Positions 47,935 to 48,803 of a stretch of 64,000 nt of DNA are shown in pieces. Under the pieces are notes generated by a model. It was not told where the DNA came from. It saw nothing but the letters and a program-made list of their open reading frames with translations, and searched no databases. The DNA lies in NCBI RefSeq assembly GCF_011045215.1, contig NZ_CP049201.1, one strand, 5' to 3'. Source of the stretch: Escherichia coli (GTDB lineage: Bacteria; Pseudomonadota; Gammaproteobacteria; Enterobacterales; Enterobacteriaceae). The number at the start of each line of letters is the position of its first letter. Within the stretch, counting starts at the first letter, position 1. Both the position numbers and the translations under genes were made by a program.

Positions 47935-48803
47935 TCATCTCGCTGGCAGTGCTCCCGGATAGTGTCGGGCGATGATGTTGTTCAGCTTATCAATCAACTC
48001 AGGTCGCTTGAATACGATGTGTGCAGTTCCCTTCTGAAAATACTTAATCACAAACATCTCATCCTCGTAACGGTTACTGTGCCTGTTCTCATGGATATGA
48101 TCGCTGAGACGACGGGTAACGTCAGCGCGGTTGTAGGGAACCGGTTTGCCATCAAGAAGCATCAGCATACGCTCAAGGTCAGCTAACCGGTCACGCTGCC
48201 AGCCCCAGTTAAGCCCAAATCCCCACCGATCGAACTTGACTAGTCCGGTAACGATAATTTTCGCCCCAAACTTGCAGGGGAATTTGTCTTAAAATTCCAG
48301 CTTAAACCTTTGAACACATTTATCACTCCGCGCTCAAACACCTCGCCCTTGTTCAGATGCAGTTGCTCAAACGTGCTGAGAATATTCTCTTCGCTGACGG
48401 CAGGAATGTCATCCTTTTCCAGACTGTTGTACCACTGGTCACGAGCCTGAGCATCCATGAGCGAAATCATGCCCGACTTCTTCATCAGGTCTCGCCATAT
48501 GCTGCGATCGAGATTACGGGTAATAGCTTTCATCGCCGCTTCTGGTTTCTCCATCAACCAGCAGCCGCAACGGAAATCCTGCTTCATAGCCCAGTCCAGC
48601 GCGGTTTTTCCCCCGATACTGCGGGTCAGCATCGAAACATCGTCCAGTTGTTGCATGAGCACTTCAATCTGCGCCAGCGCGGCATTACGTCCCGTGACAA
48701 TACGCTCAATGCTGGTGGAGCAAATCACGTCGGTGTGGCCGGTTAATACTTCGGGTTTGGTGAGAGTAAGCTCTGACATTATTTCGTTCCTTATATAAAG
48801 CAA
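47935..48803 (-). pseudogene. Disrupted gene in two frames (track ORFs 48240-48803 and 47935-48168); family tentatively DUF4942-like
   Basis: Two adjacent same-strand ORFs in different frames separated by 71 nt; location downstream of a CbtA-type toxin module; family name from memory only. Confidence 0.4.

What the first reader, a model, noticed from the sequence alone, without database searches (positions are those of the whole stretch)
47935..48803. Gene next to aspV is split across two reading frames
ORFs 48240-48803 and 47935-48168 lie on the same strand in different frames with only a 71-nt gap, and together are the size of a single protein of about 265-280 aa. This is consistent with a frameshift-inactivated gene, or a sequencing error, at the island edge.
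Basis: seen in the sequence. Interest (0 to 1): 0.3.

Follow-up and report, generated by a model that had tools for sequence, protein, structure and literature searches.

The report
Frameshifted DUF4942 pseudogene beside aspV
The two neighbouring reading frames are the halves of one 281-codon island gene of unknown function (DUF4942), broken by the loss of a single C from a run of five; this is an ordinary, inherited pseudogene that public annotation already flags.

Summary
ORFs 48240-48803 and 47935-48168 (minus strand) match consecutive parts of one Pfam domain, DUF4942 (profile 1-91 and 117-189 of 190).

The real gene runs from ATG 48779 to the stop at 47935. It is 845 nt, one short of the 846 nt (281 aa) of intact relatives. 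A 99%-identical intact allele at the same dnaQ/tRNA-Asp position reads AATTCCCCCTGC where the window reads AATTCCCCTGC. So one C was lost from a C5 run (plus-strand GGGG 48277-48280). This lies inside the upstream ORF, not in the 71-nt "gap". Frame 0 then ends at TAG 48242-48240 after 11 wrong residues.

It is not a sequencing error:
- 41 complete E. coli genomes carry exactly this 845-nt allele.
- The exact truncated product is recorded on at least 1000 contigs.
- Two assemblies with Edwardsiella-type flanks carry the same allele beside their own tRNA-Asp.

RefSeq already labels the locus "DUF4942 domain-containing protein, frameshifted". Other E. coli lineages broke the same gene in other ways, and one lineage keeps it intact.

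The intact protein has a confident predicted fold with no solved relative. It is not a methyltransferase, despite old names. Low interest; already known.

The parts
47935..48779 (-). Whole DUF4942 pseudogene, from ATG 48779 to the TGA stop at 47937-47935. It is 845 nt, against 846 nt in intact alleles.
   Evidence: PGAP gives the same extent, flagged 'frameshifted', in H10407
48277..48280 (-). The lesion. This is a C4 run on the coding strand (GGGG on the plus strand) where the intact near-identical allele has C5, so one nucleotide was deleted after codon 168.
   Evidence: DNA alignment with L008:1206-2051; repair by one C gives a 281-aa ORF
48243..48779 (-). The truncated product that the gene can still encode. 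It has 179 codons: 168 native residues (the helical N-terminal half) followed by 11 out-of-frame residues, ASLGRKLSLPD.
   Evidence: this exact 179-aa sequence is on at least 1000 contigs
48240..48242 (-). Premature TAG stop in frame 0, created by the frameshift.
47935..48276 (-). Stranded C-terminal coding part: codons 169-281 plus the stop, in the -1 frame. This frame is open from 48288. It encodes all the predicted beta strands and the invariant residues D201, H254 and N267. It also carries D216Y, at a column that is D in 75 of 86 relatives.
47935..48168 (-). It is a by-product of ORF calling. It has been deposited as 'hypothetical protein' and 'methyltransferase domain protein'.
48788..48792 (-). 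AAGGA Shine-Dalgarno sequence 8 nt upstream of ATG 48779. It supports 48779, not TTG 48803, as the start.
   Evidence: upstream sequence; read directly from the sequence
48806..48827 (-). Terminator-like GC-rich hairpin between the 67-aa gene that RefSeq names DUF957 and the DUF4942 gene.
   Evidence: consensus scan only
47726..47802 (+). tRNA-Asp(GUC), aspV, which the island abuts.
47809..47934 (.). Island-side junction DNA. Identity with K-12 stops after 47808. This stretch is 97.6-99.2% conserved wherever this island allele is found, including next to non-E. coli dnaQ genes. It contains a hairpin plus T-run at 47809-47847.

Best explanation
This is one gene for a 281-aa DUF4942 protein. It is the last gene of a genomic island that abuts tRNA-Asp (aspV). 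The adjacent island genes are antirestriction, RadC, DUF987, CbeA, CbtA, DUF5983 and a 67-aa gene that RefSeq names DUF957.

The gene was inactivated by loss of one C from a C5 homopolymer run (inferred mechanism: replication slippage). Translation from ATG 48779 goes out of frame after Pro168, adds 11 unrelated residues and stops at TAG 48242-48240. The C-terminal 113 codons have no ribosome-binding context that would rebuild the domain. They hold every predicted beta strand and three of the four invariant residues of the family.

The mutation is real, old and inherited. It has spread with the island within E. coli and into Edwardsiella hoshinae.

Shown: the lesion, its position, its reproducibility, and the existence of intact orthologues.
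Inferred: that the product is non-functional and that the deletion arose by slippage.

The function of the intact protein is unknown. It is a stand-alone copy of a domain that in longer relatives sits N-terminal to a class I methyltransferase domain, so a DNA-modification accessory role is the best guess.
For: - The two fragments match consecutive parts of one Pfam domain.
- The gene is 845 nt; frame 0 stops at gene position 538, and the C-terminal frame is open from position 492.
- An intact 846-nt allele, about 99% identical, in the same dnaQ/tRNA-Asp context has C5 where the window has C4. Apart from that there are only 8 substitutions.
- The repaired protein is 98% identical over 100% of its length to a 281-aa protein, P0001. 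2542 homologues were found at E <= 1e-10, and the 120 best listed are 276-284 aa.
- 1245 cluster representatives match at E <= 1e-10, and the full-length ones are single chains of about 255-295 aa.
- PGAP labels the locus 'frameshifted' in H10407, USMARC-49610 and others.
- 45 of 5426 complete E. coli genomes carry the >=99% allele. Of the 44 listed, 41 are exactly 845 nt and none is 846 nt.
- Every more distant homologue of the middle segment is 1 nt longer.
- The exact 179-aa truncated product is on at least 1000 contigs.
- The same allele (844/845 nt, no gap) lies beside tRNA-Asp in Edwardsiella hoshinae NBRC 105699 and in a second assembly with the same flanks, where dnaQ is 72.7% identical to the window's.
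- In the AlphaFold model (pLDDT 86.8), the break falls between the helical half (residues 24-160) and the alpha/beta half (174-273).
- D216Y hits a column that is D in 75 of 86 relatives.
- The same gene was inactivated independently elsewhere: a G5-to-G4 deletion in NH-21, and two internal stops plus an insertion in CFT073/Nissle.
Against: - No expression data. A 168-residue helical N-terminal product could still fold and act.
- The frameshifted allele has persisted, diversified (several 179-aa variants) and moved between genera. That is compatible with neutrality on a hitch-hiking island but does not prove it.
- Raw reads for the source genome were not available, so this particular assembly's C-run was checked only by agreement with other assemblies.
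- Low-level -1 slippage of tRNA-Pro on C-CCU cannot be excluded.
Confidence: 0.95

Rival explanations
1. Sequencing or assembly error: the genome really has C5 and an intact gene.
For: The lesion is a 1-nt length change in a homopolymer, which is the commonest type of sequencing error (general knowledge).
Against: - The identical 845-nt allele is in 41 listed complete genomes, including several independent assemblies of ATCC 8739, and H10407.
- The exact truncated product is on at least 1000 contigs.
- It is in two assemblies with Edwardsiella-type flanks.
- A 4/5-nt run is short for systematic homopolymer error.
Confidence: 0.02
2. Programmed -1 ribosomal frameshifting or transcriptional slippage makes a full-length protein from the split gene.
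For: - The needed shift is -1, and the site is C-CCU, where tRNA-Pro could re-pair.
- A formal X-XXY-YYZ heptamer (T-TTG-GGG) lies in the 49-nt overlap.
Against: - Intact relatives are single uninterrupted ORFs, so the frameshift is not a family feature.
- The heptamer is simply the conserved K-F-G codons, and its G-run A-site is not a known efficient slippery site.
- The 94 nt downstream fold no better than shuffled sequence (z = -0.19).
- A C4 run is far too short for efficient RNA-polymerase slippage (general knowledge).
- Other lineages carry nonsense mutations in the same gene.
Confidence: 0.02
3. Phase-variable contingency locus: the C tract switches the gene on and off.
For: The lesion is in a homopolymer tract of an island gene.
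Against: - The tract is only 4-5 nt long.
- All 41 full-length >=99% alleles are C4, with none C5.
- The only C5 copy found differs by 8 further substitutions and sits in another species' genome.
Confidence: 0.01
4. Two genuine small genes, or a functional split protein.
For: - Gene callers and some depositors list the 179-aa and 77-aa ORFs as proteins.
- The 77-aa ORF has its own ATG.
Against: - Both pieces belong to one Pfam domain.
- The 77-aa ORF starts at Met205. It therefore omits residues 169-204, including three predicted strands and invariant D201.
- The only Shine-Dalgarno-like element before that ATG is a weak GAG.
- The last 11 residues of the 179-aa ORF are out-of-frame sequence.
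Confidence: 0.02

Closest known systems
RefSeq/PGAP pseudogene 'DUF4942 domain-containing protein, frameshifted' (e.g. ETEC_RS01110 in E. coli H10407; N1705_RS23535/23540 in USMARC-49610)
   Same: Same locus, same 845-nt extent, 99.9-100% identical sequence, same neighbours.
   Different: Nothing of substance. PGAP does not state the position of the lesion, and it annotates the same sequence inconsistently: as one pseudogene, as two pieces, or as 'restriction endonuclease subunit M'.
Intact aspV-adjacent DUF4942 gene of E. coli strain 81 (WP_016236912.1, 281 aa) and the intact near-identical allele P0001 (L008)
   Same: Same position next to tRNA-Asp and the same upstream genes. P0001's gene is about 99% identical in DNA.
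   Different: Both are 846 nt with an uninterrupted frame. The strain 81 allele is about 20% divergent in the middle third of the gene (mosaic). P0001's host has a dnaQ only 80% identical to the window's.
Degraded aspV-adjacent DUF4942 alleles of CFT073/Nissle 1917 and of NH-21
   Same: Same gene at the same site, also pseudogenes.
   Different: The lesions are independent. CFT073/Nissle has two internal stops (E148*, W193*) plus a 1-nt insertion near the 3' end. NH-21 has a G5-to-G4 deletion at gene position about 166.
DUF4942-methyltransferase fusion proteins (about 460-470 aa) and PHROG 6263 'DNA methyltransferase'
   Same: They share the DUF4942 domain.
   Different: They carry an additional C-terminal class I SAM methyltransferase domain (Pfam MTS / Methyltransf_11). 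The 281-aa island protein has none, and its predicted fold matches no solved methyltransferase.

Membership tests
Pfam PF13708 (DUF4942) | Match to the family HMM above the gathering score (25 bits) | tested here: met
   The fragments score 104 and 81.8 bits and cover profile positions 1-91 and 117-189.
Pfam PF13708 (DUF4942) | Domain encoded as one continuous polypeptide | tested here: not met
   The gene is 845 nt and the frame breaks after codon 168. Continuity is restored only by adding one C.
Frameshift pseudogene | An intact orthologue exists at the syntenic position | tested here: met
   Strain 81 has WP_016236912.1. L008 and L009-L012 carry intact 846-nt genes beside dnaQ/tRNA-Asp.
Frameshift pseudogene | An indel that is not a multiple of 3, leading to a premature stop | tested here: met
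   One C is lost at gene positions 500-503, and TAG follows at positions 538-540.
Frameshift pseudogene | The lesion is reproducible in independent assemblies (not an error) | tested here: met
   41 complete genomes, at least 1000 contigs, and two assemblies with Edwardsiella-type flanks.
Frameshift pseudogene | Read-level support in the source genome itself | not testable with these tools
   No reads are available.
Programmed -1 ribosomal frameshift gene | The frameshift is conserved across homologues | tested here: not met
   Homologues are single ORFs of about 255-295 aa.
Programmed -1 ribosomal frameshift gene | A slippery heptamer with a downstream stimulatory structure | tested here: not met
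   The only formal heptamer is T-TTG-GGG. The downstream 94 nt fold with z = -0.19.
Phase-variable homopolymer locus | A long tract with length polymorphism among close relatives | tested here: not met
   The tract is 4-5 nt, and all 41 full-length >=99% alleles have the same length.
Class I SAM-dependent DNA methyltransferase / R-M subunit M (legacy name of these ORFs) | A methyltransferase domain or Rossmann fold | tested here: not met
Known anti-phage defence proteins (PADLOC) | Match to a defence-system HMM | tested here: not met
   No hit for the intact protein or for its two upstream neighbours.

The most novel reading that the evidence does not exclude
The frameshift is not neutral decay. 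Either the 168-residue helical N-terminal half is kept as a working stand-alone product, or loss of the full-length DUF4942 protein is advantageous to the island or its host. Either would explain why the gene has been knocked out at least three separate ways at aspV, and why this broken allele has persisted, diversified and crossed from Escherichia to Edwardsiella.
Probability: 0.06. Interest if true: 0.3.

Novelty: already known. Interest (0 to 1): 0.08.

Why it matters
It matters very little biologically. It is a routine pseudogene in the decaying end of a genomic island, and RefSeq already marks it as such.

Three practical points follow:
- The exact lesion is now pinned down: C5 to C4 at window 48277-48280.
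- The same sequence is annotated three different ways in RefSeq, and its fragments circulate in databases under misleading names such as 'restriction endonuclease subunit M', 'methyltransferase domain protein' and 'YdiA-1'.
- The identical broken allele beside tRNA-Asp in E. coli and in Edwardsiella hoshinae is a handy marker of recent inter-genus transfer of this island.

Tried and rejected
- The first DNA alignment, against 91%- and 85%-identical alleles, put the gap at gene position 494 (AAGA-CAA). This was superseded when a 99%-identical intact allele placed the gap in the C run at 500-503 and showed that residues T-N-S-P are still in frame.
- I looked for a closer intact donor of the divergent middle third among 5426 E. 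coli genomes. None was found above 84.5% identity.
- The literature search found only 4 papers that mention DUF4942, one occurrence each and none in a title or abstract. I did not read them.
- Rfam found only the tRNA in 47600-50700.
- Programmed frameshifting and phase variation were considered and rejected.
- I suspected that the island was inverted, because its distal end rather than an integrase abuts the tRNA. The same junction recurs beside diverged dnaQ genes, so it appears to be the island's native junction. I did not follow this to the far end of the island.

Full report
**Observation.** The ORF list reproduces the two minus-strand ORFs exactly: 48240-48803 (187 aa, TTG start) and 47935-48168 (77 aa). 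They are in different frames and 71 nt apart. tRNA-Asp(GUC) lies at 47726-47802 on the plus strand. Upstream are dnaQ and rnhA (ORFs; named in the matching RefSeq records). This is the E. coli aspV locus. The window is identical to K-12 through the tRNA plus 6 nt and diverges from 47809 onward. The gene's stop codon is therefore 126 nt from the island/chromosome junction.

**One gene, not two.** Both ORFs hit the same Pfam model, PF13708 (DUF4942). The upstream ORF covers profile positions 1-91 of 190 (E = 1.1e-29). The downstream ORF covers 117-189 (E = 6.5e-23).

The family is large and consists of single chains:
- A search of 1.84 billion cluster representatives gave 2407 hits at E <= 0.001 and 1245 at E <= 1e-10. 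The full-length hits are 255-295 aa and span residues about 17-280 of the query.
- The word-indexed search gave 2542 hits at E <= 1e-10. The 120 best listed are 276-284 aa, most of them 281 or 282 aa.

**Extent and start.** The gene runs from ATG 48779 to TGA 47937-47935 and is 845 nt. PGAP uses the same extent in H10407. An AAGGA sequence lies 8 nt upstream of this ATG. The TTG at 48803 comes immediately after a terminator-like hairpin at 48827-48806 and is only an ORF-calling extension.

**Exact lesion.** Aligned to alleles that are 85-91% identical, the missing base seemed to be at gene position 494. A much closer intact allele corrected this. That allele is P0001, encoded at L008:1206-2051 on a metagenome contig that also carries dnaQ, rnhA and the tRNA-Asp. 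It differs from the window gene by only 8 substitutions and one indel. It reads AAT TCC CCC TGC AAG where the window reads AAT TCC CCT GCA AG.

So one C has been lost from a C5 run. This is gene positions 500-503, window 48280-48277, GGGG on the plus strand. The consequences are:
- Residues up to Pro168 are native.
- Frame 0 then reads ASLGRKLSLPD and stops at TAG 48242-48240.
- The correct C-terminal frame is open from 48288, so the two frames overlap by 49 nt.
- The 71-nt 'gap' is an artefact of requiring a start codon.
- Re-inserting one C gives a 281-aa protein. The first repair tried, a G at gene position 493, was 98% identical to P0001 over its full length.

**Real mutation, not an error.**
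- Of 5426 complete E. coli genomes, 45 carry a >=99% identical allele. Of the 44 listed, 41 are exactly 845 nt. One has a further 1-nt deletion, one has 2 extra nt, and one is cut by IS1. None is 846 nt.
- These include several independent assemblies of ATCC 8739, and H10407.
- Every more distant homologue of the middle segment is 1 nt longer than the window (342 vs 341 nt).
- The exact 179-aa truncated product, out-of-frame tail included, is recorded on at least 1000 contigs.
- Point variants and a recombinant carry the same tail (P0287, P0288, P0291, P0295). So the allele is old enough to have diversified.
- RefSeq flags the locus 'frameshifted'.

**Spread between genera.** A pattern scan of one genome per species found this allele type once, in Edwardsiella hoshinae NBRC 105699, in the C4 form. 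There, and in a second assembly with the same flanks (L018), the island end from radC to the junction is 99.2-100% identical to the window, and the pseudogene matches at 844 of 845 nt with no gap. The adjacent dnaQ and rnhA are only 73-75% identical. The island therefore moved between genera after the gene was broken. The intact C5 allele (L008) sits beside a dnaQ that is 80% identical to E. coli's, so it is in yet another host.

**Other alleles at the same site.**
- Strain 81 keeps an intact 846-nt gene (WP_016236912.1) with identical upstream neighbours.
- NH-21 has an independent G5-to-G4 deletion near gene position 166.
- CFT073 and Nissle 1917 carry two internal stops plus a 1-nt insertion near the 3' end. 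Most of the listed hits in the 80-90% identity band have the same score and length as CFT073. I checked only CFT073 and Nissle directly.
- The window allele is a mosaic relative to strain 81. There are 4 differences in columns 1-350 and 7 in columns 651-846, but 65 in columns 351-650. P0002 shows a different breakpoint. Intragenic recombination among island alleles is evidently common.

**Rival readings.**
- *Programmed -1 frameshifting* is unlikely. The frameshift is allele-specific, not a family feature. The only formal heptamer in the overlap (T-TTG-GGG) is simply the conserved K-F-G codons. The downstream 94 nt fold no better than shuffled sequence (z = -0.19).
- *Phase variation* is unlikely. 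The tract is 4-5 nt and is not polymorphic among close relatives.
- *A functional split protein* is unlikely. The 77-aa ORF begins at Met205, omitting residues 169-204 and invariant D201, and has only a weak GAG before its ATG.
- D216Y, at a column that is D in 75 of 86 relatives, fits relaxed constraint on the stranded C-terminal part. With 3 non-synonymous and 5 synonymous differences in total, no rate test is possible.

**What the intact protein is.** It shows a helical N-terminal half (residues 24-160) and an alpha/beta C-terminal half (174-273). The frameshift falls in the linker between them.

The fold has no solved relative:
- Foldseek best E = 0.29.
- P0001, 98% identical to the repaired protein, has no hit in NCBIfam, PADLOC or PDB by sequence.

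It is therefore not a Rossmann-fold methyltransferase. The names attached to these ORFs ('restriction endonuclease subunit M', 'methyltransferase domain protein', 'restriction methylase') most likely come from longer relatives. In proteins of about 460-470 aa, DUF4942 is followed by a class I methyltransferase domain. PHROG 6263, 'DNA methyltransferase', matches the DUF4942 region. An accessory role in DNA modification is the best guess, and it is untested. The literature search found only four papers that mention DUF4942, one occurrence each and none in a title or abstract; I did not read them.

**Verdict.** The sequencing-error alternative is rejected. The feature is ordinary and already annotated in RefSeq. 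This analysis adds the exact lesion, the correction of the start and of the 'gap', the evidence of recurrent independent inactivation, and the inter-genus spread of the broken allele.

Noticed in passing
window 48130-48430 (gene columns 351-650): The DUF4942 allele is a recombination mosaic. Against the intact strain 81 allele there are 65 differences in the middle 300 nt, but only 4 in the 350 nt upstream and 7 in the 196 nt downstream. Another allele (P0002) has a different breakpoint. No donor above 84.5% identity exists among 5426 E. coli genomes.
   Followed up: partly
L020:3853-7242; L018:1-5054: Edwardsiella hoshinae NBRC 105699, and a second assembly with the same flanks, carry the same island end (radC to junction, 99.2-100% identical) with the same frameshift beside their own tRNA-Asp. 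Their dnaQ is only 72.7% identical to E. coli's. This indicates recent inter-genus transfer of the island.
   Followed up: partly
L006:1501-2358 (CFT073), L021 (Nissle 1917), L007:1501-2345 (NH-21): The aspV-adjacent DUF4942 gene has been inactivated independently in other E. coli lineages. CFT073/Nissle has two internal stops and a 3' insertion. NH-21 has a G5-to-G4 deletion. Strain 81 keeps it intact.
   Followed up: yes
window 47803-64000; L014: No integrase lies next to aspV. The island's distal end (cbtA/cbeA module and DUF4942), transcribed toward the tRNA, abuts the tRNA 3' end, and this junction recurs beside diverged dnaQ genes in other hosts. The far end of the island, its integrase and any direct repeat lie outside the window and were not traced.
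   Followed up: no
protein P0273 (258 aa; also P0274, P0282): Some E. coli encode a fusion in which about 180 residues shared with proteins that depositors name 'transcriptional regulator' (P0272) are joined to the last 77 residues of this DUF4942 allele, including the Y216 variant. It looks like a deletion within the island that joins two genes.
   Followed up: no
window ~53600-55200 versus L014:20826-26100: Relative to its closest complete genome (PapRG-06-5, 99.8% identical), the window's island lacks about 3.8 kb. The match is in 2 pieces, 16,201 nt against 19,958 nt. By the gene order in L014, the missing stretch probably lies between the IrmA gene and the IS110 transposase, but I did not map the breakpoint.
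   Followed up: no
window 47935-48779 as annotated in RefSeq records: The same 845-nt sequence is annotated three different ways by PGAP: as one frameshifted pseudogene, as two overlapping pseudogene pieces, or as 'restriction endonuclease subunit M' plus DUF4942. The fragments are deposited elsewhere as 'YdiA-1', 'methyltransferase domain protein' and 'hypothetical protein'.
   Followed up: yes
window 48860-49063 (-): RefSeq names this 67-aa ORF 'DUF957 domain-containing protein'. It gave no Pfam hit at E <= 0.01 and no NCBIfam hit in my scans.
   Followed up: no
window 47809-47847 (+): The 12-bp hairpin plus T-run directly after aspV is island DNA, not the K-12 sequence. In island-bearing strains the island therefore supplies the hairpin-and-T-run, terminator-like sequence that follows the tRNA.
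   Followed up: no
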